DNA from: an uncultured archaeon
Lineage (GTDB): Archaea; Aenigmatarchaeota; Aenigmatarchaeia; CG10238-14; EX4484-224
Reading direction: 5' to 3'
Assembly (NCBI GenBank): GCA_964459585.1
Contig: CAYWME010000001.1
Coordinates: forward strand, 1 to 37,572
Length of the DNA stretch: 37,572 nt
Shown: positions 13,390-24,520 of the stretch, in pieces
Layout of the letters: each line of letters opens with the position of its first letter
Numbering within the stretch: position 1 is the first letter of the stretch
Translations under genes and position numbers: made by a program
The notes under the pieces: model-generated
Told to the model about the DNA's origin: nothing
Databases searched by the model: none
The model's input: only the letters and a program-made list of their open reading frames with translations

Positions 13390-14013
13390 TTATTCCTTAA
13401 GTTTGTAAACAAGCTCAGATAAACTTCTTACCGATTCTATTAATGCCGGCAGTGCTTCTCTAAACACTTTTTCTAAACTTTCTACTTTTCCTGTTAATCT
13501 TCTTATATCCCCTCTGAGGTTTTCCATACTGCTTTCAAAGACGAATTTTTCATCCTCCTTTTTTTCTTTTAACTCTCTTACTAGGTTTTCTATTGTTGAA
13601 ATTTTGTTTTCAACGTCCTTTTGTCTTGAAACAAGTTCTCTTATCTTTCTATTGATCTCTGTTGTTTTTTCGTCAACTAAAGTTTCGACATAATCTTGAC
13701 TATACTCTGGTTCTTCTTCTTTGTAATAGGCCTCGATTGAAGACTCTTCTGGAACTTGCAGATCTGTCGAAACTTCTTTTTTTATGTCTTCTATCGTCGG
13801 TAACGGTTTGTCGGTCTTTTCTGTATTCGCTGACACTTTCGATTTAGTCGATTCTAAAATCGCTTTTTCGATTTCATCCAACGAATAACCTTCTTTTGAA
13901 AGAACTTCCAGTATTTCATGCTCTGATAAACCTTTCTTAGAAAGCTCGTTTACTTTATCAATGGGAATATGACCCTTCCCTTTAGCTTCTGTTTTCTTTC
14001 TAAAAAGCGCCAT
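13390..14013 (-). CDS. Coiled-coil protein with a small helical N-terminal domain (unknown function)
   Basis: 207 aa. The basic N-terminus is MALFRKKTEAKGKG, followed by a helical module (LSKKGLSEHEILEVLSKEGYSLDEIEKAI). Next comes an acidic linker and a long heptad-like E/K-rich C-terminus. Confidence 0.6.
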   Translation of the reverse strand: MALFRKKTEAKGKGHIPIDKVNELSKKGLSEHEILEVLSKEGYSLDEIEKAILESTKSKVSANTEKTDKPLPTIEDIKKEVSTDLQVPEESSIEAYYKEEEPEYSQDYVETLVDEKTTEINRKIRELVSRQKDVENKISTIENLVRELKEKKEDEKFVFESSMENLRGDIRRLTGKVESLEKVFREALPALIESVRSLSELVYKLKE

Positions 14014-14046: not shown

Positions 14047-14445
14047 TTAAACCTTAACTTTTTTCCTTTTCCTGAAGGAACTTATCATCCTCAAAACTTC
14101 CTCTCTTGTTACAAACTTTGATTTCAGTGGATTAAAAATGCTTACATAACTTTCAATTCCAGCTAATTCCTCTTTTGTTACAAAAGTGTTTATCTTTTTT
14201 TTCATTTCGTTTATTTCTTTTTCAAATTCATTCATTCTTTCTTTGAGTTCGTTTATTTTATCTAAAATTCTTCCAAGCTTGATGTTTGTTTCGTCTATTT
14301 TTTCTAAAAATTCTTTACTTAAAGTTATTTCGTCGTTTTCAATTTTTTCAACCTTGTCTTCTAAAATCCTTATTCTTCTTAAATGTTCATTCAGCCTTCT
14401 AACAATTTCCCTTAATATAACATCAACTTTTTCTTTTTCTGCCAT
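14047..14445 (-). CDS. Coiled-coil protein (unknown function), divergent from the secretion ATPase
   Basis: 132 aa, almost entirely E/K/I/L heptad-like sequence. It shares a 51-bp divergent intergenic region with the ATPase gene. Confidence 0.6.
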   Translation of the reverse strand: MAEKEKVDVILREIVRRLNEHLRRIRILEDKVEKIENDEITLSKEFLEKIDETNIKLGRILDKINELKERMNEFEKEINEMKKKINTFVTKEELAGIESYVSIFNPLKSKFVTREEVLRMISSFRKRKKVKV

Positions 14446-14496: not shown

Positions 14497-16701
14497 TTGG
14501 TTGAGTACAAAACAGAAGACAATGTTCTTAAGTTTGATTGTAATAATTGGGTGATTCCCAGTAGTATAGAGGATTCTGGAGCTACGATGGCCGTTGTTGT
14601 AGACACGTTATCAAAGGTTTTCGGTGTCGAAAGAATTGTAATGGTTGAAGAGAGAGAGATAGAATACGGAATAGAAGAAACACAAATGTTGATTGAACTG
14701 GCAAAGCTGATTGGAAAAGTAATGTCGGAAAATATTTTAGATATAAAAAATCTTGGAAAGTTAGAAAACAAAGAAGAATTGTCGAAAAGGATAAGGGAGA
14801 TTAGATTTATAGTTACACAGTTACTAAGAAAAGACCCTATCGCGGCCTATGTGAGAATTAACCAGTTAATTAAAAAAGAGAAAGATGCCGTGTTTGTTAA
14901 AAACGTTTTGATCCCACTTAGGAACATGCTTGAAAATATAAAGTTGATTAGAAAAGCAAAACCCTTTCTAAAGTATTATAAATTCGGTGATAGATCGATA
15001 TACCGAAAGATTTTTTCTCCTATAGTCAGACCCCCGTTCATGTTGACTAGGTTTGTGATGAAAGTACCTACAGAATCGAGATTGATTGATAAGTATGAAA
15101 TTCGTGGAAAAATTAAAGTGGAAATATATCAACTACCGGGGGTTGCCAGATTTTTCTACAGAATTATTCCACCAGAATTTGTAATGAGTGAGGATGAAAA
15201 CAAAATTCTGCAAATGGCTAAAGAATATTTGGCAGAAAGAAGGCCAAAAGAAACAGAAACCACAGACTACGAAAAAACTAGAGAATTTTTTATGTCGTTA
15301 GGAAGAAGCTTGATAAGAGATATATCAAAAAGATTAGGAACTAGGCTCAGCTCTTCCGACATAGATAAATTGACAGAGATACTAATTAGGTACACGATAG
15401 GCTTCGGTGTTCTAGAAATTGTATTAGCTGATGATAAAGTTCAAGATGTGTACATAAATGCACCCGTTGGTTCTTCTCCTCTATTCGTAAACCACACAGA
15501 TTATGGAGAGTGTGAAACAAATATAATACCAACAAGAGAAGAGGCAGAATCGTGGGCGACAAGATTTAGGTTGTATTCGGGAAGACCATTGGATGAAGCT
15601 AATCCTGTTTTGGATACAGAAATAACTGTAGCCGGTGGAAGAGCAAGAGTTACAGCAATCACAAGAACGCTTTCTTTGAAAGGCTTGGCCTTCGCATTTA
15701 GAAGGCATAGAAAGCGGCCATGGACCTTTCCCCTTTTTATAAAGGCAAAGTTTTTCGACCCATTATATGCTGGTGTCATGAGTTTCTTGGTTGATGGTGG
15801 CAGATCTATTTTGATCGCTGGGGGAAGAGGAAGTGGTAAAACAAGTCTATTGAATGCTATGTTGTTAGAGCTTATGAGAAATACAAGAATTATTGTTGTT
15901 GAGGACACACCGGAGCTTTCAATAGACCTGATGAGAAGACTTGGTTATAACATAATCGGACTCAAATCAAGATCTGTAATAACCCAAGTAAAAACCGAGT
16001 TACCACCAGAAGAGGCATTAAGAACAGCCTTAAGATTGGGAGATTCTGTTTTGATAGTAGGCGAAGTAAGAAGTAAAGAAAGTGTGGCTTTGTTCGAGGC
16101 CATGAGAATAGGTGCACTAGCAAATCTTGTTGCTGGAACGATTCATGGAGAGAGTACTTATGGTGTATATGATAGAGTTGTTCATGATCTAGGTGTGGTT
16201 CCAACGAGCTTTAAAGCGTTGGATATAATTACAATAGCGAATGTACTAAGAAGTCCTGATGGTCTAAAAAGGTTTAGAAGAGTTATTGAATTAACGGAAG
16301 TTAGAAAAGAATGGAAAGAAGACCCGATGCTAGAAGGGGGGTTTTATAAGCTAATGGAATACTCAGCAAAGGAGGACAAACTGAAACCTACAGACGTTTT
16401 GCTTGAAGGTGAATCGGAAGTTCTAAATGAGATTGCGAAAAGGGTTAGAGAATGGCACGGTGCGTGGGACAAAGTTTGGGAAAATATATTATTGAGAGCG
16501 AAAATTAAAAAAACGATAGTAGATTTCTCAGAGAAATTGAAAAGAAACGATATTCTTGAAGCTGATTGGGTTGTAGAATGTAATGAAATGTTTCATATAA
16601 TTTCTAACAATGTTTTAGAAGAGGTTGGTAGTGTAGAATCAAAACGTGTATATGAGAGATGTCTAAATTGGTTTAAGAAAAAACTAAAGGAAAAAACATG
16701 A
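14497..16701 (+). CDS. Type II/IV secretion-family ATPase (FlaI/PilB/VirB11-like), oversized (734 aa)
   Basis: Walker A AGGRGSGKTS (nt 15820-15843), Asp box RIIVVEDTPEL, Walker B/Glu SVLIVGEVRSKE and His box GTIHGES. The start is uncertain: tracked TTG at 14497, first ATG at 14587. Confidence 0.85.
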   Translation: MVEYKTEDNVLKFDCNNWVIPSSIEDSGATMAVVVDTLSKVFGVERIVMVEEREIEYGIEETQMLIELAKLIGKVMSENILDIKNLGKLENKEELSKRIREIRFIVTQLLRKDPIAAYVRINQLIKKEKDAVFVKNVLIPLRNMLENIKLIRKAKPFLKYYKFGDRSIYRKIFSPIVRPPFMLTRFVMKVPTESRLIDKYEIRGKIKVEIYQLPGVARFFYRIIPPEFVMSEDENKILQMAKEYLAERRPKETETTDYEKTREFFMSLGRSLIRDISKRLGTRLSSSDIDKLTEILIRYTIGFGVLEIVLADDKVQDVYINAPVGSSPLFVNHTDYGECETNIIPTREEAESWATRFRLYSGRPLDEANPVLDTEITVAGGRARVTAITRTLSLKGLAFAFRRHRKRPWTFPLFIKAKFFDPLYAGVMSFLVDGGRSILIAGGRGSGKTSLLNAMLLELMRNTRIIVVEDTPELSIDLMRRLGYNIIGLKSRSVITQVKTELPPEEALRTALRLGDSVLIVGEVRSKESVALFEAMRIGALANLVAGTIHGESTYGVYDRVVHDLGVVPTSFKALDIITIANVLRSPDGLKRFRRVIELTEVRKEWKEDPMLEGGFYKLMEYSAKEDKLKPTDVLLEGESEVLNEIAKRVREWHGAWDKVWENILLRAKIKKTIVDFSEKLKRNDILEADWVVECNEMFHIISNNVLEEVGSVESKRVYERCLNWFKKKLKEKT

Positions 16702-18596
16702 ATGACGAAAAAGAAAAACAAACACTTTATGAAAAAATTTGCATGTTTTTCGAAAAGATAGGGATTAATCCACCAAAGGATCTGAGAGAAAGATACGAGA
16801 AAGAAATAAATTTTTGTCATCTAAAGACTACTCCGAAGGGTGTTTTTTCAACTGCCATTTTTGTACCGATTATAATTTCGATTTCTATGTCAGTAATAGC
16901 TTTGTTTTTAAACGTCTTCTCCTTTGCCCTTCTAGGAATGATTGTTGTTTTGAATTTTATTGTCTTTTATTTTCTCCTTTTTTACACCAAATTTTTGGTT
17001 AAATTTTTTAGGTCGAAAGCTGCGTCTGAGATGGCTCTGGCTATAGTTTATATGACTACTTCACTAAAAGTGTCTAGAAACTTAGAAAACGCGGTTTTAT
17101 TTGCTGCATCAAACTTAAAGGGTCCGCTAGGAAAGGACTTTAAACAAATTTTATGGGAATTAGAGACAGGAAAATTGAATTCAGTTATACAAGGAATTGA
17201 CAAACTGATAGAAAAATGGAAAGAAGAAAGTGAGGAGTTTGTCGATGCTTTAACAATTTTAAAGAATACAACGGCTGTTCCACCATCAGAAGTTGATAAA
17301 AACCTTAGGAAGGCGGTGTCGATTATGCTTTATGGAACTAAAGAAAGAATGAAAAAATACTCGCTGGCGTTAAAAATGCCTTTGATGATAATAAACATGT
17401 TTGGGATTTTACTTCCCGTGATGGGACTAATATTCTTCCCGATTGTTTCACTTTTTACACCAGAAATTGCTAGGCCAGAACTTCTGGCTTTTTTATATGT
17501 GGTGTTTTTACCGACAGTCAACATAATTTTCATGAGACAGTATTTCTATCATAGACCATATTCTTTTCACCAAATTGAAAGCAAGGTTATTGTTGATCTA
17601 AAAAAACTTCTTTTACCTATATTTTTTATTTTGGTGTCCTGTTTAGCAGTCGTTGTGTTTTCGTCTATGCAACTCTTGAATGAAAAAGGGGCTTTTAGTT
17701 TTAATCAACTAATTTTCTCAGTAAGTATTGTATCAACTATAGGTCTTAGCATTTCTTCGATTTTACTTTTAGTAGGATATATAAATAAAGAAAAGAATGA
17801 AAAGCTTTTGGAAATGGAAAGGGAATTGCCGTCTGTTCTTTTTGCTTTGAGTTTGGAAGCAGAAACAGGAAGACCGTTTGAAATTATCCTCGAAGATTCT
17901 TTGTCAAAAATAAGAGATTATAAGTTTAGTGAAATCGTTATTAGAATCCTAGAAAGAATTAAAAAGTTGGGTTTAAATCTCAAATCAGCTTTATTTAGTG
18001 AAAAATATGGAGTAATGTTCGATTATCCGTCTAAGATTATTCATGCGGTAATGAAAACGGTTGTCGATATATCTGAAAGAGGCATACATTTCCTTTCTTC
18101 TTCGCTAAGAACTATTTCAGAATATCTTAAAGATGCAATAGAAGTTGATGATTTTTCACATGAAACTTTATCGGAATCCACTTCACAAATGCGATTTCAA
18201 GCGTGGCTTTTGGCTCCACTTACTGCAGGAATAGTTGTTGGTTTGATGGCAATTGTATTGCATATATTTACAGTTTTTGGAGGGTCTTTAGAACAAATAA
18301 ATGAGTTTTTGGGTGGCGGAGATAAAAGCTTTGGTACTATTTCTTTTCTATTCAACATAGGGAACTTAATATCTTTTTCACAATTTCAATTTATAGTAGG
18401 GATTTACATGATAGAAATTATGTTGATCTTATCTTACTTTACAGGTGACATAAAGTACGGAGATAACAATGTAAGCAAAATACTCGAGATGGGGGAAACC
18501 CTTTTAATTGGAATTTTCATATATTTTTCGACAATTCTTCTACTATACATTCTTATAAATGGTATGATAACAATTAGTGCGGTTGAAACAATATGA
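16698..18596 (+). CDS. Pilus/archaellum-type membrane platform protein (PilC/TadC/FlaJ-like, two T2SS-F-like repeats)
   Basis: ATGA overlap with the ATPase gene. 632 aa with three clusters of TM helices separating two cytoplasmic helical domains. Each domain has the family-typical pattern (AASEMALAIVYMTTSLKVSRNLENAV...GPLGKDF and ERELPSVLFALSLEAETGRPFEIIL). Confidence 0.7.
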   Translation: MNDEKEKQTLYEKICMFFEKIGINPPKDLRERYEKEINFCHLKTTPKGVFSTAIFVPIIISISMSVIALFLNVFSFALLGMIVVLNFIVFYFLLFYTKFLVKFFRSKAASEMALAIVYMTTSLKVSRNLENAVLFAASNLKGPLGKDFKQILWELETGKLNSVIQGIDKLIEKWKEESEEFVDALTILKNTTAVPPSEVDKNLRKAVSIMLYGTKERMKKYSLALKMPLMIINMFGILLPVMGLIFFPIVSLFTPEIARPELLAFLYVVFLPTVNIIFMRQYFYHRPYSFHQIESKVIVDLKKLLLPIFFILVSCLAVVVFSSMQLLNEKGAFSFNQLIFSVSIVSTIGLSISSILLLVGYINKEKNEKLLEMERELPSVLFALSLEAETGRPFEIILEDSLSKIRDYKFSEIVIRILERIKKLGLNLKSALFSEKYGVMFDYPSKIIHAVMKTVVDISERGIHFLSSSLRTISEYLKDAIEVDDFSHETLSESTSQMRFQAWLLAPLTAGIVVGLMAIVLHIFTVFGGSLEQINEFLGGGDKSFGTISFLFNIGNLISFSQFQFIVGIYMIEIMLILSYFTGDIKYGDNNVSKILEMGETLLIGIFIYFSTILLLYILINGMITISAVETI

Positions 18597-18706
18597 AAGG
18601 TGTTAGAACGTCAGTTTTATTCATAATGGTAGGAATTTTAACAATTTTTTTGATAGTACTCTTTATTTATATCGTCTCCGAAAAAATTTTTAAATATGCT
18701 CCTTGA
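18593..18706 (+). CDS. Micro-ORF (37 aa), single-TM, possible minimal prepilin-like peptide; not in the ORF track
   Basis: Hand translation: MKGVRTSVLFIMVGILTIFLIVLFIYIVSEKIFKYAP*. The ATG overlaps the platform gene stop (ATGA). MKG is followed by a 22-residue hydrophobic stretch. Confidence 0.35.
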   Translation: MKGVRTSVLFIMVGILTIFLIVLFIYIVSEKIFKYAP

Positions 18707-18854
18707 AGGAAAAAAAGGGATTGCTATAAGTTGGATTGTCTTGGCCATTTTGTTTATAATTTCTATCATCGTTTTTTTAATTTTCATAAACAAAATGACT
18801 TTTATCATACCTATTTTTGGAACAAAGGTTGGAGAGGCCATTAGTGGAGGATAA
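18696..18854 (+). CDS. Micro-ORF (52 aa) with a class-III-like leader; not in the ORF track
   Basis: Hand translation: MLLEGKKGIAISWIVLAILFIISIIVFLIFINKMTFIIPIFGTKVGEAISGG*. KKG|IA is followed by a hydrophobic helix. It overlaps the previous micro-ORF by 11 nt in another frame. Confidence 0.4.
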   Translation: MLLEGKKGIAISWIVLAILFIISIIVFLIFINKMTFIIPIFGTKVGEAISGG

Positions 18855-18887
18855 TTTACATTAATTTCAAAAACAAAATTATATTTA

Positions 18888-20123
18888 ATGAGCTGGTCTT
18901 TAACGTTGGTCGCTGGTTTTGTTGTTGGGGTTATAGTGATTTCACTATCAAGTTTATTTCTTTTTGGTACAACGAACCCCATTTTCGACCGCTTGTCGTC
19001 TTTATTTTCCTCCTATGATCAAGACATTAGAAACGCTATACTTTGCGCTATTGAGAGGGCTAAAAGTGGTTGTAATGATCCTTTGATAGATACAATAAGA
19101 TGGAAGAGTTATGATGAAAATGGGAGTTTGGTTGAAGTTTCTTGTATAGAGTTTTGTAACAGAGAACAATTTTTTGATAAAAATGGGAGAGTGTTTGGTT
19201 TTGAATCAATTTACTATCCTGTGGAAATTTCTGTAAGCGGTGAGGACAACATTATAGGAAGGTATAGTTCACCAGAGATAAAATGTTTGACACTAGCTTC
19301 TAAGATAGTTCATAAAATGTATCCAAATAAGTTTTCTTTAGATGTAGGTGATAATTATATAATAATCGATGATTCTGTAATAAAAAAATATCCTACTCCC
19401 TCTGATGACGATTGTGATGGGGCGGAAAGCTATGATTTATTGGATATCAAAAACTCTAAATTGTATATTTATACAGTTACTGATCCGTTTCATGATAAAA
19501 TCGTTTATGTAAACTCTACAAACACTTATCCGATCATTGAGCCCAATGGTGAGACATATGTTAATCTTACTCTTACTGAGACTTATTATGGGTTCGATAC
19601 GAGTTTAGATATAAGTGTAAATTTTTATGGGAAGGCGATAAGATTAAGAGTTAAAGATAATAACTATGAGAAAGACCTAATAGTGGTTGCTGATAAGATA
19701 GATGGAGAAAATAAAAACGTTGTTCTCTCTATATATGATTTTACCGATAATTCACTTATATGTCAGAAGACCATAAATAAAGGCTCTCGTGACAAATGTG
19801 AACTCGATGATATTAGAGAGCTTGACTTTTTTGTAGAAGACATGTTTAGCTTTTCTTATTGCGTAATTCATGAATGTTATGGTAGTAGGTGTGGTTCTGT
19901 GTATAAATATGTTAGTCAAGAAAATGATGATATTTGTGATGTTGTTTTGTCAACCATTAATTCAACAAAAATAAAAATTAGATTCCAAACCACTGATTGT
20001 GAAAGCCAGGGGGACGGGTATGTTTGTTTAAGTAATTGTGGTCCATGTAACGAAGTTACTAGATATTCGTGTAGTAACGGAAAGCTATGTTGTTATTGCC
20101 CTTACTTAACAGAAATATCATAA
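18888..20123 (+). CDS. Large cysteine-rich surface protein, paralog 1 (N-terminal hydrophobic anchor/leader; 20 Cys; Cys-knot-like C-terminus)
   Basis: 411 aa. N-terminus MSWSLTLVAGFVVGVIVISLSSLFLF. It shares a 69-aa identical cassette and lower-level similarity throughout with the next gene. The C-terminal 44 aa carry 8 Cys (TDCESQGDGYVCLSNCGPCNEVTRYSCSNGKLCCYCPY). Confidence 0.7.
   Translation: MSWSLTLVAGFVVGVIVISLSSLFLFGTTNPIFDRLSSLFSSYDQDIRNAILCAIERAKSGCNDPLIDTIRWKSYDENGSLVEVSCIEFCNREQFFDKNGRVFGFESIYYPVEISVSGEDNIIGRYSSPEIKCLTLASKIVHKMYPNKFSLDVGDNYIIIDDSVIKKYPTPSDDDCDGAESYDLLDIKNSKLYIYTVTDPFHDKIVYVNSTNTYPIIEPNGETYVNLTLTETYYGFDTSLDISVNFYGKAIRLRVKDNNYEKDLIVVADKIDGENKNVVLSIYDFTDNSLICQKTINKGSRDKCELDDIRELDFFVEDMFSFSYCVIHECYGSRCGSVYKYVSQENDDICDVVLSTINSTKIKIRFQTTDCESQGDGYVCLSNCGPCNEVTRYSCSNGKLCCYCPYLTEIS
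19029..19235 (+). repeat. 207-bp perfect direct repeat, copy 1 (in frame inside CDS 18888..20123)
   Basis: Base-by-base comparison with 20341..20547 shows identity over all 207 nt. The flanking bases differ on both sides (t/g upstream, a/g downstream). Confidence 0.95.
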
Positions 20124-20146
20124 GTTGTGAGTGTTGCACTCAAAAC
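20124..20146 (+). terminator. Stem-loop directly after the stop of paralog 1 (GTTGTGAGTG-ttg-CACTCAAAAC)
   Basis: 10-bp stem with one mismatch and a 3-nt loop, starting 1 nt after the TAA. There is no T-tract, so a role in termination or mRNA stabilisation is speculative. Confidence 0.25.
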
Positions 20147-20193
20147 GGGCCTTCCATAAACACTTTAACTTAAATCAGCAAAATATTTAATTA

Positions 20194-21261
20194 ATGAGAG
20201 GTTTTGGATCATTCGTTGTTGGTGCTATAATCGTAGTGGTAACGGTAGTAGTGATAGCTTTTCTTTTATTCAAATATGGTGGTAGTTTATTAAGACAGCG
20301 ATCTGATATATTTATTTCTTATTCCAATGTTGCTAATCCGAGAAACGCTATACTTTGCGCTATTGAGAGGGCTAAAAGTGGTTGTAATGATCCTTTGATA
20401 GATACAATAAGATGGAAGAGTTATGATGAAAATGGGAGTTTGGTTGAAGTTTCTTGTATAGAGTTTTGTAACAGAGAACAATTTTTTGATAAAAATGGGA
20501 GAGTGTTTGGTTTTGAATCAATTTACTATCCTGTGGAAATTTCTGTAGATAGTAGTAGTTCGATAGAAAAATATAAAGATCCAAAAATAGAATGCTTATC
20601 GTTAATCGCAAAATTTAAAACACCATCGTGCCCGCTTGGTTGTGCTGGTACTTATGTTTTCGTTGACGATTATGCGATATCCAAATATCCTGATGTTTCT
20701 AAAGAATGTAATGGGATTGAATCGTACAGTTCACTTGCTTTGAAAAAAACTACATTGTATATCTATGCTGTCAAAAAAGATGATAACAATCCCCTAACAC
20801 TAAACAACTTTATATATATTTTTATATATAGTACCCCAACATATCCCGTACTCCATCCTAACGATAAAGTCAGTATAACATTGAGCAAACCATACGATGA
20901 TGGTACTTACGTAGTGAAAGCGGTTAGAATAAAGACGATAACCTCAGATTCTCAAAGAGATTTAATAATCACTACAAGAAATATAAATCGCGAAGAGGAA
21001 AAAATTGAGATTTTAATACTAGACTTTGACAATTTAAACTCAATTTGTCAAGAAATAATAAGTAGAGGTTCGACTTATAAGTGCTATATTGATGACAACA
21101 ATTATCTTGAAATTGTACCAACGGAATTTTCTCAATCCAGTCGTCCAAAAACCAATAACACAAAAGTTACTATAAAATTCAAAACACCAACTAGTGGTGG
21201 AGAGGCTGGTAGAATGGTAAGTTCTTGCGCGCCTCGCCCACACTGTCTTTACCCAGAATAA
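20194..21261 (+). CDS. Large cysteine-rich surface protein, paralog 2 (class-III-like leader MRG|FGSFVVGAIIVVV; 12 Cys)
   Basis: 355 aa. It contains the identical 69-aa cassette, then diverged but alignable segments (IEKYKDPKIECLSL / IGRYSSPEIKCLTL; LYIYAV / LYIYTV; SICQEIISRGSTYKCYIDD / LICQKTINKGSRDKCELDD). Confidence 0.7.
   Translation: MRGFGSFVVGAIIVVVTVVVIAFLLFKYGGSLLRQRSDIFISYSNVANPRNAILCAIERAKSGCNDPLIDTIRWKSYDENGSLVEVSCIEFCNREQFFDKNGRVFGFESIYYPVEISVDSSSSIEKYKDPKIECLSLIAKFKTPSCPLGCAGTYVFVDDYAISKYPDVSKECNGIESYSSLALKKTTLYIYAVKKDDNNPLTLNNFIYIFIYSTPTYPVLHPNDKVSITLSKPYDDGTYVVKAVRIKTITSDSQRDLIITTRNINREEEKIEILILDFDNLNSICQEIISRGSTYKCYIDDNNYLEIVPTEFSQSSRPKTNNTKVTIKFKTPTSGGEAGRMVSSCAPRPHCLYPE
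20341..20547 (+). repeat. 207-bp perfect direct repeat, copy 2 (in frame inside CDS 20194..21261)
   Basis: Identical to 19029..19235. Both copies begin on a codon boundary of their own gene (offsets 141 and 147 nt from the starts). Confidence 0.95.
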
Positions 21262-21297
21262 AATAAAATTATTTATCTCGAAATTAAGAGTTTTATT

Positions 21298-21561
21298 ATG
21301 GTTTCTATAAACACAGTGTTTATAATATTAGTTATTTTTTTCACATTTTTCTTCACTCTTGTATTAACATGGAACTATTATGCAAAAAACGAAAAAGTAA
21401 GAGGAGAAATGGCTTGTGAAGCGAAACTATTAAATTATTGCCAAAGATGGTTAACGGAAGGAGAAGACCCTGGCGATTGGTATTCTATATCTCCTGTAGA
21501 CTGCGAAAAATATGGAATTACTAGACCGACTAAAGAATATTGTAATGAGGTATTAAAATGA
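21298..21561 (+). CDS. Small N-terminally anchored Cys-containing protein (87 aa)
   Basis: MVSINTVFIILVIFFTFFFTLVLTW hydrophobic N-terminus, then a soluble domain with 4 Cys. The stop overlaps the next start (ATGA). Confidence 0.6.
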   Translation: MVSINTVFIILVIFFTFFFTLVLTWNYYAKNEKVRGEMACEAKLLNYCQRWLTEGEDPGDWYSISPVDCEKYGITRPTKEYCNEVLK

Positions 21562-21977
21562 ATGGGATAACATCTATAGATGTAGCCGGATTTGTTATAA
21601 TAACAATTTTAACACTTGTCTTTTTTTTCAATTTTTTACCAAGAGCCGTAGAGATGCTTGTAAAAACTGTTAGTCTAACCTCAACTTGGAGAGTTTCGGA
21701 AGAGATAAGTAGTTTAATATCAACATCAGCTTCAGCGCCCTATGAAATCGAAATAAACTACAAAATCCCAGACGAGAGAGTCAAATACAAAATATCTACT
21801 TCAGATAGATTCGTACATGTAAGTATTTTAAGGGGGGGTGTTTTAGGAGAAACGTCTCCAGCAGATTCAAAAATTCTCGTAGATGTGAATGAAGAAGCGT
21901 TTGAAAGTGCTTCCGAGTTCATTATAAAAAAGTTTTTAACAAACGGTGAAACCCAATATGTCATCAAAGCTAAATAA
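21558..21977 (+). CDS. Pilin-like/N-terminally anchored protein (139 aa)
   Basis: MNG|ITSIDVAGFVIITILTLVFFF leader-like N-terminus. It is operonic, with 4-nt overlap upstream and about 20-nt overlap downstream. Confidence 0.55.
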   Translation: MNGITSIDVAGFVIITILTLVFFFNFLPRAVEMLVKTVSLTSTWRVSEEISSLISTSASAPYEIEINYKIPDERVKYKISTSDRFVHVSILRGGVLGETSPADSKILVDVNEEAFESASEFIIKKFLTNGETQYVIKAK

Positions 21978-22851
21978 AGGAATTACGATAACGACATCGG
22001 CCGTTTTCGAAGCAATTGTTTTACTCATTTTAATAATACTGATATTTTGGTTTTTTGCTAATACAGCGTACGAGGCACATTTGAAGTTAAAAGAAAATAG
22101 AGTAGAAAAAATGTCGATAGAAGTAGCAAATGCTATGCTCAGTTCAAAGGAACTTACATACGAAGAAAACGGAAAGGTTTTAAGAGGTGTTCTAGATAAA
22201 GAAAAACTAGATGCAAAATTCTACAAAATTAAAGAATTTCCACTAGTAACGAATGTTAAGGAATTTGCGGGTTGTGTACAATATACTTATAATAACAATT
22301 GTTCTGAAGCGAACATAATAGACATTCTTGAATGTATAGCAAACTTTCTTTCAGACATAACTGGGTGTGTTTCTGATTTCATTCTCGATAATTTTGGCCC
22401 AACAAGTGATACGAATATATTTAAAAACTATGAAGTTGCTGTCCAATCATTAAATATGTATACAACGCCTATAGACGTTTCTGTAGGTTTTCCAAATACA
22501 TACACATACGTTGTTGTTTTAGATTTAGAAAATTGCGATGAAAACGGTCATTGTGAATCTTGGCAGGGAGTTATTAATTCACCGACATCATTAGGAGAAA
22601 ATTATATATTCAGGTTTGGTGAGTGTCTTTTGAGTAACATAAATTTGGATTTAAACACGATTGTTTCGGCAGGTCTTTTTGCCGGACTATGGACACCATT
22701 TGACATAGACGAATGTGTTAATAATGTTTTTGGAGGAAACGCAATATACAATAATATAATGTCAAGAAAAGGTCTTCCTGTGTTAATAAAATATGGAAAT
22801 GGTGAAACCCATATAGGAAGAATTTATGTGGGAATGGTACAATGGTCGTAA
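21958..22851 (+). CDS. Prepilin-like protein (297 aa, 8 Cys)
   Basis: MSSKLNKG|ITITTSAVFEAIVLLILIILIFWFF has a basic residue plus Gly followed by a hydrophobic helix (class III signal pattern). The tracked GTG at 21946 is an alternative start. Confidence 0.65.
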   Translation: MSSKLNKGITITTSAVFEAIVLLILIILIFWFFANTAYEAHLKLKENRVEKMSIEVANAMLSSKELTYEENGKVLRGVLDKEKLDAKFYKIKEFPLVTNVKEFAGCVQYTYNNNCSEANIIDILECIANFLSDITGCVSDFILDNFGPTSDTNIFKNYEVAVQSLNMYTTPIDVSVGFPNTYTYVVVLDLENCDENGHCESWQGVINSPTSLGENYIFRFGECLLSNINLDLNTIVSAGLFAGLWTPFDIDECVNNVFGGNAIYNNIMSRKGLPVLIKYGNGETHIGRIYVGMVQWS

Positions 22852-23276
22852 AAAAAGGCTTTATGTTAATAACAATTCCCATCATGATCGCTCTATTTGT
22901 ATTAGTAATTGGTGGTGCTTTTGGTTTGAGCGTTCTTTTAAAAAAACAACTAATAATTAACCTTATAGTTGAATACGAGAACAACGAAGGCGATCTATCA
23001 ATCCTATCTCTTTTAAGACGCAAATTCAGCGAGACGTTGGATGGTTATGACGTCATAGTGTTGTCCAGCAATATACAGAGCGATTCTTTTCTCGATTTTA
23101 TCGATGATGCTATAAATAAGACCATTTCACCTAAATGCTATGAATTATATTTTTTGGAAAAACTTATTAAAAAAACGTGTGATTGCGGCAGAAATTCAAA
23201 TAAAGTTTCCTTTGATTTAATTGTCCCATATAATGATGAAAACCTAATAAAAACGCTGACTTTGGTGTATAAATGA
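22842..23276 (+). CDS. Prepilin-like protein (144 aa)
   Basis: MVVKKG|FMLITIPIMIALFVLVIGGAF is a textbook class III signal pattern. It overlaps both neighbours. Confidence 0.7.
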   Translation: MVVKKGFMLITIPIMIALFVLVIGGAFGLSVLLKKQLIINLIVEYENNEGDLSILSLLRRKFSETLDGYDVIVLSSNIQSDSFLDFIDDAINKTISPKCYELYFLEKLIKKTCDCGRNSNKVSFDLIVPYNDENLIKTLTLVYK

Positions 23277-24142
23277 AAGGACAAGGCCCGATAGCGATTG
23301 CATTGATGATTTTGATGATTGGTCTTGCTAGTGCTGGTTATTTTTTAACTTCGTCCATTATAACCACGTATAACGTCAGAACAGGTTTAAAAAGTAGGAC
23401 AATTATGAAAGAAATCGACAAGTTTGAGGTTTTTAAAATAGGTATAGAAAAATCTCTTAAATATTCACTTTGTCAGGGTGTTTATGAAACCTTTAAAAAA
23501 AATGGATTTAGTTCTCTTGACAACATACCGACTATAGATAATATACCAGTTTTGAGAAATGGGAGTAATGTATATTTTACTTATAACTATTTTGACGATG
23601 TGAAAAACAGTGTAGCTAATATTTTTTCTGAATATACTAACCAACTTAAGAATGTCAATGGAGTTGTGGTACCGAGTGGTGAAATACGAATTGTAGACGA
23701 AGATGGCTTAGTTGAAGTGTTTTTTCATTCCGATGAAAAAACCACGTATTCTGGATTTTTCTATACTATAAAAGATTTGACTAATTTTAGTGCAAAAGTA
23801 AGAACGCATTTTTTAGATATGTTTGACCTGGCCATCGACATGTTTATCCAAAACGATAAAATAAAGGAAAAAATCACAGAAGCAATAAATTCGTGTGGAT
23901 ATTGCTCCGACGAAGAACTTGGAAATATGATAAGTGACAAAATTAAAACTCTAGAGGGTAAATACAATGGAGTTGAACTCGTGTTAAATGTTGAAAATAT
24001 CAAAATAGCCCAAAACAAAGTCACGGCAAAGGTTCTCGTGACAATAAAAGACTCAGATAAATGTTTCTTTTTTGACGACTCTGAAGTACGGTATGATAAA
24101 TTACCGTTTGTTTTCTATATAATTAGCGAAAAAAACATTTAG
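23273..24142 (+). CDS. Prepilin-like protein (289 aa)
   Basis: MKG|QGPIAIALMILMIGLASAGYF carries the KGQ motif typical of euryarchaeal-type prepilins. ATGA overlap with the upstream gene. Confidence 0.7.
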   Translation: MKGQGPIAIALMILMIGLASAGYFLTSSIITTYNVRTGLKSRTIMKEIDKFEVFKIGIEKSLKYSLCQGVYETFKKNGFSSLDNIPTIDNIPVLRNGSNVYFTYNYFDDVKNSVANIFSEYTNQLKNVNGVVVPSGEIRIVDEDGLVEVFFHSDEKTTYSGFFYTIKDLTNFSAKVRTHFLDMFDLAIDMFIQNDKIKEKITEAINSCGYCSDEELGNMISDKIKTLEGKYNGVELVLNVENIKIAQNKVTAKVLVTIKDSDKCFFFDDSEVRYDKLPFVFYIISEKNI

Positions 24143-24164
24143 AGTTTTGAGCAACAGCCAAACA

Positions 24165-24199
24165 ACAAAAATATTAATACAAAGTTTAAAAAAATATAT
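24165..24199 (+). promoter_or_regulatory. Possible BRE/TATA region for the short pilin gene; the transcript may be leaderless
   Basis: AAAAATATTAATAC is centred about 26 nt upstream of the ATG at 24200. There is no SD-like purine motif in between. This is the only sizeable intergenic gap (57 nt) inside the pilin gene string. Confidence 0.3.
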
Positions 24200-24520
24200 A
24201 TGGCAAAAGGGCTGAGTGCACCAACCATAATAAGTTTAATAATTGCGGTCGCTATAGGTGGGTTATTACTCTACATATTCTGGACAAGAGGTGCGACGCC
24301 ATTTATGGGTGTAACCAGTGAGCAAGATTGCAGAACCACTATTTTTAAAGCATGTAACAAATTTACTGGTATGAATTTCAATGTTTTTGATGATACAAAA
24401 ATAAAATCATGTATTGAAAAGTATTTTCCTGAGGAAAATAGCGATTATGAAGAATGTATTGATGGGAACCAAGACAAATGTTCAAGCATGTGTATAGCAT
24501 TTGAATCTGGAACTGTTTAG
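24200..24520 (+). CDS. Short prepilin-like protein (106 aa, 6 Cys), candidate major pilin
   Basis: MAKG|LSAPTIISLIIAVAIGGLLLYIF is a class III signal pattern. It has a small globular domain with 6 Cys and its own upstream AT-rich promoter-like gap. Confidence 0.7.
   Translation: MAKGLSAPTIISLIIAVAIGGLLLYIFWTRGATPFMGVTSEQDCRTTIFKACNKFTGMNFNVFDDTKIKSCIEKYFPEENSDYEECIDGNQDKCSSMCIAFESGTV

What the first reader, a model, noticed from the sequence alone, without database searches (positions are those of the whole stretch)
19029..20547. 207-bp, 100% identical in-frame cassette shared by two otherwise diverged tandem paralogs
Bases 19029-19235 and 20341-20547 are identical at every position (checked by eye). 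They encode the same 69 aa: RNAILCAIERAKSGCNDPLIDTIRWKSYDENGSLVEVSCIEFCNREQFFDKNGRVFGFESIYYPVEISV. Outside the cassette the two proteins are only loosely alignable, and identity stops abruptly at both borders. Both copies start on a codon boundary of their own gene. Homologous recombination between them would therefore delete 1312 bp and give an in-frame chimera: the N-terminus of gene 1 joined to the C-terminal body of gene 2. Identity with zero silent differences inside diverged genes points to very recent gene conversion. An alternative is a recombination-based mechanism that swaps variable C-terminal surface domains onto a constant module. This would be antigenic or host-range-variation logic (inference).
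Basis: seen in the sequence. Interest (0 to 1): 0.75.

Follow-up and report, generated by a model that had tools for sequence, protein, structure and literature searches.

The report
Gene-conversion patch in tandem pilin-like genes
Two neighbouring, long-diverged copies of an unannotated pilin-like gene in a DPANN archaeal pilus operon share a 207-base stretch that is identical to the letter, and the best explanation is ordinary copy-and-paste recombination (gene conversion) confined to the family's one conserved domain.

Summary
Bases 19029-19235 and 20341-20547 are 100% identical over 207 nt, in frame in two tandem genes (g1 18888-20123, 411 aa; g2 20194-21261, 355 aa). Outside the block the genes share 21-36% of amino acids and 42-51% of nucleotides. 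Synonymous sites there are saturated (pS 0.68-0.74), against 0 differences at about 40 synonymous sites inside. The longest other exact match is 11 nt.

Contigs from a separate ENA assembly, which carry strain-level SNPs elsewhere, reproduce copy 1 and 187 of 207 nt of copy 2 anchored in copy-2 flanks. An assembly artefact is therefore unlikely.

The genes sit in a chromosomal archaeal type IV filament operon, probably of an Aenigmatarchaeota archaeon: ATPase, platform, then about ten proteins with N-terminal hydrophobic helices. The block coincides with the only conserved domain of a rare, unannotated family whose C-termini vary (139-557 aa).

Best explanation: homology-limited gene conversion, probably recurrent. 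I found no silent cassettes, recombinase, reverse transcriptase, G4 motif, inverted copies or chimeric proteins, so a programmed variation system is unsupported, though an lpl-like "recombination hinge" is not excluded.

This is a new member of a known kind, of modest interest.

The parts
14497..16701 (+). Type IV filament assembly ATPase (PilB/GspE-like), 734 aa
   Evidence: Pfam T2SSE 2.5e-18. It is 49-59% identical to ATPases of Aenigmatarchaeota MAGs.
16698..18596 (+). Polytopic membrane platform protein (PilC/TadC-like), 632 aa
   Evidence: Weak Pfam T2SSF hit, 2.6e-4, below the gathering score. Syntenic orthologues follow the ATPase in L002-L010 at 25-43% identity.
18593..18706 (+). 37-aa mini pilin-like ORF (MKG|VRTSVLFIMVG...), overlapping the platform gene's stop
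   Evidence: Read from the sequence and translated. It matches the position of the 40-43 aa gene called in the same position in L006, L012, L013 and L016.
18696..18854 (+). 52-aa mini pilin-like ORF (..KKG|IAISWIVLAILF..)
   Evidence: Equivalent 52-69 aa genes lie in L012, L013, L015 and L016.
18888..20123 (+). g1: pilin-like paralogue 1, 411 aa. Non-canonical N-terminus (MSWS..., no [KR]G), hydrophobic helix, conserved domain, beta-rich C-terminal body with a Cys-rich tail
   Evidence: AlphaFold2 model has pLDDT 71 with a long N-terminal helix followed by beta structure. No Pfam or NCBIfam hit.
19029..19235 (+). Identical block, copy 1 (codons 48-116 of g1)
   Evidence: It is spanned with both flanks by the separately assembled contig L001.
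20124..20193 (+). 70-nt intergenic spacer between g1 and g2
   Evidence: It is contained in the independent contig L001.
20194..21261 (+). g2: pilin-like paralogue 2, 355 aa. Canonical class III-like N-terminus (MRG|FGSFVV...), the same conserved domain, a diverged and shorter C-terminal body without the Cys-rich tail
20341..20547 (+). Identical block, copy 2 (codons 50-118 of g2)
   Evidence: Nt 1-99 are verified in L001 anchored in the left flank, and nt 120-207 in L021 anchored in the right flank.
21298..24520 (+). Six further genes (87, 139, 301, 144, 289 and 106 aa), each with an N-terminal hydrophobic helix and several with [KR]G motifs: the rest of the pilin-like gene set
   Evidence: The order is conserved in L005, L012, L013/L014 and L016/L017.

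Best explanation
g1 and g2 are old tandem duplicates of a pilin-like gene in an archaeal type IV filament operon. The gene has an N-terminal hydrophobic helix, a small conserved Cys-containing domain and a variable beta-rich surface body. The host is probably an Aenigmatarchaeota (DPANN) archaeon. The 207-bp identical block is a tract of intragenomic, non-reciprocal homologous recombination (gene conversion). The tract is confined to the one segment conserved across the whole family. It stops where homology collapses, within 2-6 codons of an indel on each side. The flanks are saturated and hold no exact match longer than 11 nt that could seed recombination. I therefore infer that the block has been kept identical by repeated conversion (concerted evolution) while the flanks diverged, rather than by one late event between already dissimilar sequences. 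A passive consequence is that the block is a substrate for a 1312-bp deletion or for unequal exchange. Shown: the identity, the dS contrast, the tandem gene structure, the operon context and the coincidence with the conserved domain. Inferred: the recombination mechanism, its recurrence and the pilin role.
For: The block is 207 of 207 nt identical, with 0 differences at about 40 synonymous sites. Flanking pS is 0.68 (N-terminus) and 0.74 (C-terminus). Only 43 of 92 conserved-residue codons outside the block are the same codon. The longest other exact match is 11 nt. An exhaustive profile search of 1.8e9 representative proteins finds 9 distant hits, 8 of which match only the N-terminal part up to about profile position 93-183. 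The ninth (P0011, a repeat protein matching positions 179-263) looks spurious. The invariant residues A50, C53, R57, G61, C62, C86 and P111 all lie inside the block. The AlphaFold2 model gives its highest confidence (pLDDT 84-93) to this segment. The MAFFT alignment places a 2-codon gap just before the block and a 1-codon gap just after it. Reality of the sequence: contig L001 from ENA assembly ERZ27248349 equals window 17885-20439 with 0 mismatches. L021 from the same assembly equals 20460-22297 with 2 SNPs. L022 and L023, from two other assemblies, carry other SNPs. Context: T2SSE ATPase, platform protein and a conserved order of pilin-like genes. A second lineage (L012) also has a tandem pair at this position. 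It has an exact 44-nt patch upstream of each copy amid 50-80% identity.
Against: No read-level data were available, and 20 nt of copy 2 (20440-20459) are not covered by a flank-anchored independent contig. No close relative carrying both paralogues exists in the searched collections. The classic phylogenetic test could therefore not be run (block grouping by genome, flanks grouping by orthologue). The tract coincides so exactly with the conserved domain that selection on tract ends, or a functional role for the identity, cannot be excluded. The pilin assignment rests on context and N-terminal features only. There is no Pfam, NCBIfam or PDB sequence hit and no significant Foldseek hit. g1 also lacks the [KR]G motif.
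Confidence: 0.75

Rival explanations
1. Maintained recombination hinge. The identical block is kept because it serves as a crossover site that reshuffles the variable N-terminal and C-terminal modules. The shuffling would work by deletion, unequal exchange or recombination with DNA from related strains. This is as proposed for the 132-nt central conserved region of the Staphylococcus aureus lpl tandem paralogues, and would diversify a surface or adhesin protein of an episymbiont.
For: The architecture is the same as lpl: a 5' variable region, a central conserved region and a 3' variable region in tandem surface-protein paralogues (PMC2568036). The C-termini of the family are highly variable in length and sequence. 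The two genes are complementary. g2 has the canonical MRG| signal but no Cys-rich tail, while g1 has the tail but a non-canonical N-terminus. Unequal exchange would therefore create new end combinations. A tandem pair with an identity patch recurs in L012.
Against: There are only two copies. The position is single-copy in L005, L006, L013/L014, L015, L016/L017, L018 and L020. No chimeric or variant protein is recorded: each gene is a one-member cluster. In the second sample the g1/g2 region is identical to the window. The identity patch in L012 lies in a different place, upstream and non-coding. Shuffling as a selected function is not needed to explain the pattern.
Confidence: 0.12
2. Mosaic origin by transfer. 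The two genes are not old in-genome paralogues. One copy, or its flanks, was acquired recently from a divergent strain and recombined at the conserved domain. The block would then be identical by recent common descent of that segment only.
For: The flanks are saturated although the block is identical. The lpl model includes such inter-genomic routes. Strain-level diversity exists among samples.
Against: G+C content is uniform across the locus at about 0.31-0.34. No mobile-element genes lie nearby. No donor-like sequence was found in 5.8e9 protein clusters or in the metagenome scan. The route needs more steps than conversion, and its final step is still homologous recombination in the block.
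Confidence: 0.07
3. Assembly or polishing artefact. The second copy, or its perfect identity, was created by repeat collapse, a chimeric join or consensus polishing with mis-mapped reads.
For: The contig is a metagenome assembly. A 207-nt exact repeat exceeds common k-mer sizes, so linkage across it depends on the assembler. 20 nt of copy 2 lack independent flank-anchored support.
Against: A separate MEGAHIT assembly gives g1 with copy 1, the whole inter-copy segment and 99 nt of copy 2 in one contig. It gives the last 88 nt of copy 2 joined to its own right flank in another contig. Both are identical to the window in this region, while SNPs elsewhere show different data or populations. The inter-copy segment is unique sequence that begins and ends in the block, which forces two copies. 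Both genes are intact ORFs with their own starts and diverged flanks.
Confidence: 0.04
4. Nucleotide-level functional constraint. An RNA structure, an embedded regulatory element or an overlapping gene keeps every base identical without recombination.
For: None beyond the identity itself. Antisense ORFs of 49-79 aa overlap the block.
Against: The RNA fold of the block is no more stable than shuffles (z = +0.29). Rfam finds nothing there. The antisense ORFs differ in extent between the copies and are low-complexity products of AT-rich sequence. Constraint does not normally give 0 differences in 207 nt between paralogues whose flanks are saturated.
Confidence: 0.02

Closest known systems
Gene conversion / concerted evolution between paralogues in prokaryotic genomes (general phenomenon)
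   Same: A tract with dS of about 0 is embedded in paralogues whose flanks are strongly diverged. The tract is limited to the region of best homology. The repeats are direct and lie in one replicon.
   Different: Here the flanks are saturated and the step from 100% to about 50% identity is abrupt on both sides. The carrier is an unannotated pilin-like family in a DPANN archaeon. No inter-genome comparison is available to date or orient the events.
Staphylococcus aureus lpl tandem lipoprotein paralogues with a 132-nt central conserved region (Tsuru & Kobayashi 2008, PMC2568036)
   Same: These are tandem surface-protein paralogues with a 5' variable region, a central conserved block of 132 nt versus 207 nt, and a 3' variable region. 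The block is a plausible homologous-recombination site. The unit between blocks spans the 3' end of one gene, the spacer and the 5' end of the next.
   Different: The lpl clusters have many copies. Their block identity averages 88%, not 100%. Shuffling was demonstrated there by comparing many strains. Here there are two copies, perfect identity and no strain comparison. One system is bacterial lipoproteins, the other archaeal pilin-like proteins.
Haloferax volcanii adhesion pilins PilA1-PilA6 with a completely conserved H-domain (reviewed in PMC6098224)
   Same: These are archaeal pilin paralogues that share an invariant module joined to differing C-terminal parts.
   Different: In H. volcanii the invariant part is the hydrophobic signal-peptide H-domain. 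Here that helix is among the most diverged parts (21% aa identity), and the invariant part is the first globular segment after it. The review reports protein-level conservation, and I did not examine nucleotide identity there.
Neisseria pilE/pilS pilin antigenic variation (from my own knowledge)
   Same: Pilin-type genes use RecA-type non-reciprocal recombination between homologous segments, with a constant part and a variable part.
   Different: Neisseria has one expressed gene plus many promoterless partial silent copies. There the variable parts are converted and the conserved segments guide the process, and a G4-forming element is needed. Here there are two complete genes, the conserved part is the converted tract, no silent copies were found in the window and no G4 motif is present.
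arCOG02911-type variable-length minor pilins of euryarchaeal type IV pili (Makarova et al. 2016, PMC4858521)
   Same: That paper describes a pilin-like gene in the pilus locus that is prone to duplication, is about 250-550 aa long, and has a beta-rich body after the signal and helix. The family here spans 139-557 aa and has a beta-rich predicted body.
   Different: No arCOG library was available, so membership is untested. The conserved Cys-containing domain found here is not mentioned in the passages I read.

Membership tests
Gene conversion tract between paralogues | Two paralogous genes in the same genome | tested here: met
   BLASTP E 4e-80 over 374 aa. The alignment extends through the C-terminal bodies.
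Gene conversion tract between paralogues | A tract with synonymous divergence far below that of the flanks | tested here: met
   pS is 0 of about 40 sites inside the block and 0.68-0.74 outside.
Gene conversion tract between paralogues | Phylogenetic incongruence: the tract groups paralogues within a genome, the flanks group orthologues across genomes | not testable with these tools
   No relative closer than about 25-30% aa identity carries the family. Only two close proteins exist in 5.8e9 clusters.
Gene conversion tract between paralogues | The sequence is real, not an assembly artefact | tested here: met
   Separately assembled contigs L001 and L021 reproduce copy 1 and 187 of 207 nt of copy 2 with their own flanks. 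Reads themselves were not available.
Archaeal type IV pilin-like protein (class III signal peptide) | A short charged N-terminus with a [KR]-[GAS] cleavage motif followed by about 20 hydrophobic residues | tested here: inconclusive
   g2 (MRG|FGSFVVGAIIVVV) and most relatives (MSKG|I, MRG|I, MKG|I) fit the motif. g1 (MSWSLTLVAGFVV) has the helix but no [KR]G.
Archaeal type IV pilin-like protein (class III signal peptide) | Encoded with a PilB-type ATPase and a PilC/TadC-type platform protein | tested here: met
   T2SSE at 2.5e-18 and a weak T2SSF hit lie directly upstream. The order is conserved in 8 or more related loci.
Archaeal type IV pilin-like protein (class III signal peptide) | A match to a curated pilin or archaellin N-terminal model | tested here: not met
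   No Pfam hit at E<0.1 and no NCBIfam hit at E<1 for g1 or g2.
Archaeal type IV pilin-like protein (class III signal peptide) | Pilin fold: a long N-terminal alpha-helix packed on a beta-sheet head | tested here: inconclusive
   The AlphaFold2 model has helix 4-59 and then beta strands. Foldseek against the PDB gives no hit with E<1e-3 and no pilin among the top 50. The PDB sequence profile search is empty.
Archaeal type IV pilin-like protein (class III signal peptide) | Cleavage by a prepilin peptidase and incorporation into a filament | not testable with these tools
   This needs proteomics or structural work. No Peptidase_A24 gene was seen in the window.
Neisseria-type pilE/pilS antigenic variation | One expression locus plus multiple promoterless partial silent cassettes | tested here: not met
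   There are two complete genes. No other copy of any 14-mer of the block occurs in the window on either strand. No further family protein from this genome is in the protein collection. The rest of the genome was not seen as DNA.
Neisseria-type pilE/pilS antigenic variation | A G-quadruplex-forming initiator sequence near the expressed gene | tested here: not met
   There is no G3+N1-7 x4 motif on either strand of the window.
Diversity-generating retroelement (TR/VR) | A reverse transcriptase gene, and a template/variable repeat pair differing at adenines, with the VR at the 3' end of the target gene | tested here: not met
   No RVT hit among the window's ORFs. The repeats are 100% identical including the adenines. 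Both are coding and lie near the 5' end of their genes.
Invertase / shufflon-type pilin variation | Inverted repeats flanking invertible segments plus a site-specific recombinase | tested here: not met
   The repeats are direct. No inverted copy exists. No recombinase domain was found.
lpl-like tandem paralogue cluster with a central conserved recombination region | Tandem paralogues with a nucleotide-level conserved central block between 5' and 3' variable regions | tested here: met
   compared with PMC2568036.
lpl-like tandem paralogue cluster with a central conserved recombination region | Demonstrated shuffling: incongruent phylogenies of the 5' and 3' variable regions among strains, with rearrangement end points in the block | not testable with these tools
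   Only one strain-level relative was seen, and it is identical in this region. No chimeras are on record.

The most novel reading that the evidence does not exclude
The perfectly identical block is a selected recombination hinge. It would let a host-dependent DPANN archaeon recombine signal/anchor modules and surface-exposed C-terminal modules of a pilus-associated adhesin, within the genome and with DNA from related strains. That would be a recombination-based surface-variation system in archaea, analogous in logic to lpl or pilin variation in bacteria.
Probability: 0.1. Interest if true: 0.6.

Novelty: new member of a known kind. Interest (0 to 1): 0.3.

Why it matters
The result is a clean, quantifiable example of homology-limited gene conversion in an uncultivated DPANN archaeon. 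It shows that homologous recombination acts on tandem paralogues in these reduced genomes. It also defines the conserved domain of an unannotated, fast-evolving pilin-like family that holds a fixed position in a widespread but uncharacterised DPANN type IV filament operon. That operon is a plausible cell-cell attachment apparatus. If related strains later show module shuffling at this block, the locus would become a model for surface variation in episymbiotic archaea. As it stands, it mainly serves as an annotation aid and as a caution for assemblers, because a 207-nt exact repeat is longer than common k-mer sizes.

Tried and rejected
**Close homologues**
- The word-indexed search of 5.8e9 clusters returned only g1 and g2. 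With a 12-sequence family profile it returned only two further distant proteins.
- Exact look-ups found no other cluster members or chimeras. g2 and the 52-aa gene are not on record as exact products.

**Collection scans**
- The metagenome scan with the 69-aa block found one weak hit inside an unrelated 72-nt-period repeat protein (L011), which I regard as spurious.
- The genome scan with the ATPase gave 9 Aenigmatarchaeota-type loci. Only L005 showed weak tblastn similarity to g1 or g2, and an HMM of the family's N-terminal region added L006. None of these loci has a tandem pair.

**Annotation libraries**
- Pfam and NCBIfam gave nothing for g1 or g2, and only weak sub-threshold hits for the other pilin-like genes. 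The PDB sequence profile search was also empty.
- Foldseek of the AlphaFold2 model against the PDB gave only insignificant hits: sialidase beta-propellers at TM about 0.14.

**Other explanations for the block**
- RNA element: no Rfam hit, and the fold z-score is +0.29.
- Phage origin: no blastn match.
- DGR, invertase or pilS-like systems: no RT or recombinase, no inverted or partial copies, no G4 motif.
- The bacterial sigma-70 promoter scan is not meaningful for an archaeon and showed no enrichment.

**The break in the ENA contigs inside copy 2**
- I considered whether the ends at block positions 99 and 120 signal a polymorphism in copy 2.
- The simpler reading is low coverage at the repeat junctions. 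There is also a selection effect: a contig carrying all of g1 can only exist in a k=141 graph if the copy-2 junctions are unconnected.
- This remains unverified.
Full report
**1. The observation**

The window contains a 207-nt direct repeat at 19029-19235 and 20341-20547. It is 100% identical, with a start-to-start spacing of 1312 nt. A string comparison confirms this, and the bases immediately outside differ on both sides.

The repeat lies in two adjacent same-strand ORFs:
- g1, 18888..20123, 411 aa
- g2, 20194..21261, 355 aa

The block starts after 47 codons in g1 and after 49 codons in g2, so it is in frame in both.

Nothing else in the window resembles it. The next-longest exact match between the two genes is 11 nt and out of register. 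No 14-mer of the block recurs elsewhere on either strand. Chance is not a candidate explanation.

**2. How different the genes are outside the block**

BLASTP gives 41% identity over 374 aa including the block. On a codon alignment:

| Segment | aa identity | nt identity | pS |
|---|---|---|---|
| 47 N-terminal codons | 21% | 42% | 0.68 |
| Block (69 codons) | 100% | 100% | 0 of about 40 synonymous sites |
| 230 aligned C-terminal codons | 36% | 51% | 0.74 |

- Flank pS of 0.68-0.74 means the synonymous sites there are saturated.
- Even at residues conserved outside the block, only 43 of 92 codons are the same codon. Purifying selection on the protein therefore cannot explain 69 consecutive identical codons.
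- In 15-codon bins, identity steps from 0.33-0.56 to 1.0 and back to 0.36-0.67.

**3. Whether the sequence is real**

An exact-protein look-up found a 2555-nt MEGAHIT contig from ENA assembly ERZ27248349 (L001). It equals window 17885-20439 without a mismatch. This contig contains:
- copy 1 with both of its flanks
- the whole segment between the copies
- the first 99 nt of copy 2, joined to copy 2's own left flank

A second contig of the same assembly (L021) equals window 20460-22297. It starts with the last 88 nt of copy 2, joined to copy 2's own right flank. It differs from the window at 21776 and 21778.

Contigs from two more assemblies (L022, L023) carry SNPs at 21474 and 21776. These are therefore different assemblies, and at least partly different populations.

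They confirm 187 of the 207 positions of copy 2 in flank-anchored sequence. The segment between the copies is unique DNA that begins and ends in the block, which forces two copies. I had no reads, and 20 nt (20440-20459) remain without independent support. I put an artefact at about 4%.

**4. What the genes are**

The window is chromosomal archaeal DNA. It encodes ribosomal proteins L1, L10 and L11, Spt5/NusG, FtsZ, Nop5, fibrillarin, Kae1 and a Hel308-type helicase. There is one tRNA-Pro and no other Rfam match.

Directly upstream of g1 lie a T2SSE-family ATPase (E 2.5e-18) and a 632-aa polytopic protein with a weak T2SSF match. Then comes an uninterrupted run of genes, each beginning with a hydrophobic helix. 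Several carry the [KR]G motif of archaeal class III signal peptides: 37 aa, 52 aa, g1, g2, 87, 139, 301, 144, 289 and 106 aa.

The ATPase is 49-59% identical to ATPases of Aenigmatarchaeota MAGs, so the organism is most likely a DPANN archaeon of that group. This is an inference from best hits.

The same gene order recurs in related loci: ATPase, platform, one or two mini-ORFs, a member of this family, then genes of about 87, 141, 235-300, 143 and further lengths. This is seen in L005, L012, L013/L014 and L016/L017, and in part in L015, L018 and L020.

g1 and g2 have no Pfam, NCBIfam or PDB sequence match.

An AlphaFold2 model of g1, built with a 10-sequence alignment, has mean pLDDT 71 and pTM 0.67. 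It shows a helix from residue 4 to 59 followed by beta structure. That is pilin-like in outline. Foldseek finds no significant PDB neighbour, so membership in a pilin family is only partly established.

Makarova et al. (PMC4858521) describe a duplication-prone, variable-length (about 250-550 aa), beta-rich minor pilin in euryarchaeal loci. That is a functional analogy, not a tested homology.

**5. What the block is in the protein**

An exhaustive profile search of 1.84e9 representative proteins returned nine distant hits. Eight match only the N-terminal part, with matches ending between profile positions 93 and 183. The ninth (P0011, a repeat protein matched at positions 179-263) looks spurious.

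In alignments of these proteins with the orthologues from L005 and L012, the invariant or near-invariant residues all lie inside the block: A50, C53, R57, G61, C62, C86, F89/C90 and P111. The motif is A..C...R(C)..GC....W....C..FC....(C)G...YPVEI.

The N-terminal helices and the C-terminal bodies vary, and total lengths run from 139 to 557 aa. The block is also the best-predicted part of the model (pLDDT 84-93).

The identical DNA tract therefore coincides with the only conserved domain of the family. Two Cys positions of the family consensus ("RC" and "vCG") are both replaced in g1 and g2 (A58 and F103). This is consistent with joint loss of one disulfide (inference).

**6. Mechanism**

The pattern is dS = 0 inside and saturation outside, with direct tandem paralogues. 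This is the signature of gene conversion by homologous recombination.

The tract ends are abrupt. The alignment places a 2-codon indel just before the block and a 1-codon indel just after it. This fits a tract that runs until homology fails.

The flanks offer no seed longer than 11 nt. The equivalent domain in the L012 pair is only about 50-65% identical at the DNA level. I therefore think a single late conversion between already dissimilar sequences is less likely than continuous homogenisation since the duplication, with the flanks drifting or being driven apart. That step is inference.

Both genes remain intact ORFs, and raw pN/pS is below 1 in the flanks, so both are probably functional.

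**7.

A crossover between the two copies would indeed delete 1312 bp and give an in-frame g1-N-terminus / g2-C-terminus gene. Unequal exchange would give the reciprocal g2-N-terminus / g1-C-terminus gene.

I found nothing that marks a dedicated variation system:
- no further full or partial copies in the window
- no other family protein from this genome in the protein collection
- no recombinase, integrase or reverse transcriptase
- no G4 motif and no inverted copy
- no chimeric protein on record

The second sample has the same arrangement. The position is single-copy in seven of nine related loci.

The closest described system is the S. aureus lpl cluster. There a 132-nt central conserved region between variable halves of tandem lipoprotein paralogues acts as the recombination site that shuffles modules among strains (PMC2568036). 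The anatomy here is the same. The demonstrated shuffling is not, and it could not be tested.

One detail keeps this reading alive. g2 has the canonical signal (MRG|F) but lacks the Cys-rich C-terminal tail seen in relatives. g1 has the tail but lacks [KR]G.

A second detail is that a distant lineage (L012) also carries a tandem pair at this position. It has an exact 44-nt patch, though upstream of the coding regions.

I give the hinge reading about 10-12%.

**8. Verdict**

It is a new example of a known process in an uncharacterised pilin-like family of a DPANN archaeon.

It is not a new kind of system on present evidence. Interest is modest (0.3). The most useful by-products are the definition of the family's conserved domain and the operon's gene order.

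Noticed in passing
window 18593-18706 and 18696-18854 (+): Two very short ORFs (37 and 52 aa) consist of little more than a [KR]G motif and a hydrophobic helix: MKG|VRTSVLFIMVG... and ..KKG|IAISWIVLAILF... The first overlaps the platform gene's stop codon. Equivalent 40-69 aa genes sit at the same place in related loci (L006, L012, L013, L015, L016). They could be helix-only 'mini-pilins'.
   Followed up: partly
L012 964-1007 and 2428-2471: A distant relative (JGI Ga0272448_1018453) also has two tandem paralogues of this family (446 and 382 aa). An exact 44-nt repeat lies just upstream of each start codon. The first copy includes the 3' end of the preceding mini-ORF. The coding regions are only about 50-80% identical. 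This is either a conserved promoter or leader, or a second conversion patch.
   Followed up: partly
window 18888-18930 versus 20194-20236: g1 starts MSWSLTLVAG... without the [KR]-G motif found in g2 (MRG|F) and in almost all relatives. Conversely, g2 lacks the Cys-rich C-terminal tail present in g1, P0004 and P0009. Each paralogue keeps one canonical end.
   Followed up: no
window 21474, 21776, 21778: Strain-level SNPs separate the window from ENA contigs of three assemblies (L021, L022, L023), in the 87-aa and 139-aa pilin-like genes. No difference was seen in the 3.9 kb covering g1 and g2.
   Followed up: partly
L001 end (window 20439) and L021 start (window 20460): Both MEGAHIT contigs of sample ERZ27248349 break inside copy 2 of the block, at block positions 99 and 120, while copy 1 is traversed. 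This probably reflects low coverage at the repeat junctions, but a polymorphism in copy 2 between positions 100 and 119 is not excluded.
   Followed up: partly
L010 4296-9542: The ATPase orthologue of Aenigmatarchaeota MAG AUK147 matches in three pieces (query residues 3-471, 466-526 and 524-731) separated by about 1.5 kb each. This suggests two insertions, possibly inteins, around the P-loop region.
   Followed up: no
window 37448-37570: About six imperfect 21-22-nt repeats (consensus TTCATAAAAATTTTCCA...) lie at the very end of the contig, after an AT-rich non-coding stretch. Their function is unknown. The contig may end there because of the repeat.
   Followed up: no
window 14047-14445 (-) and 13390-14013 (-): Two coiled-coil proteins of 132 and 207 aa are divergently transcribed from the ATPase. 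Proteins of 132-145 aa occupy the same position in L013/L014 and L015, so they may be conserved accessory or regulatory parts of this filament system.
   Followed up: no
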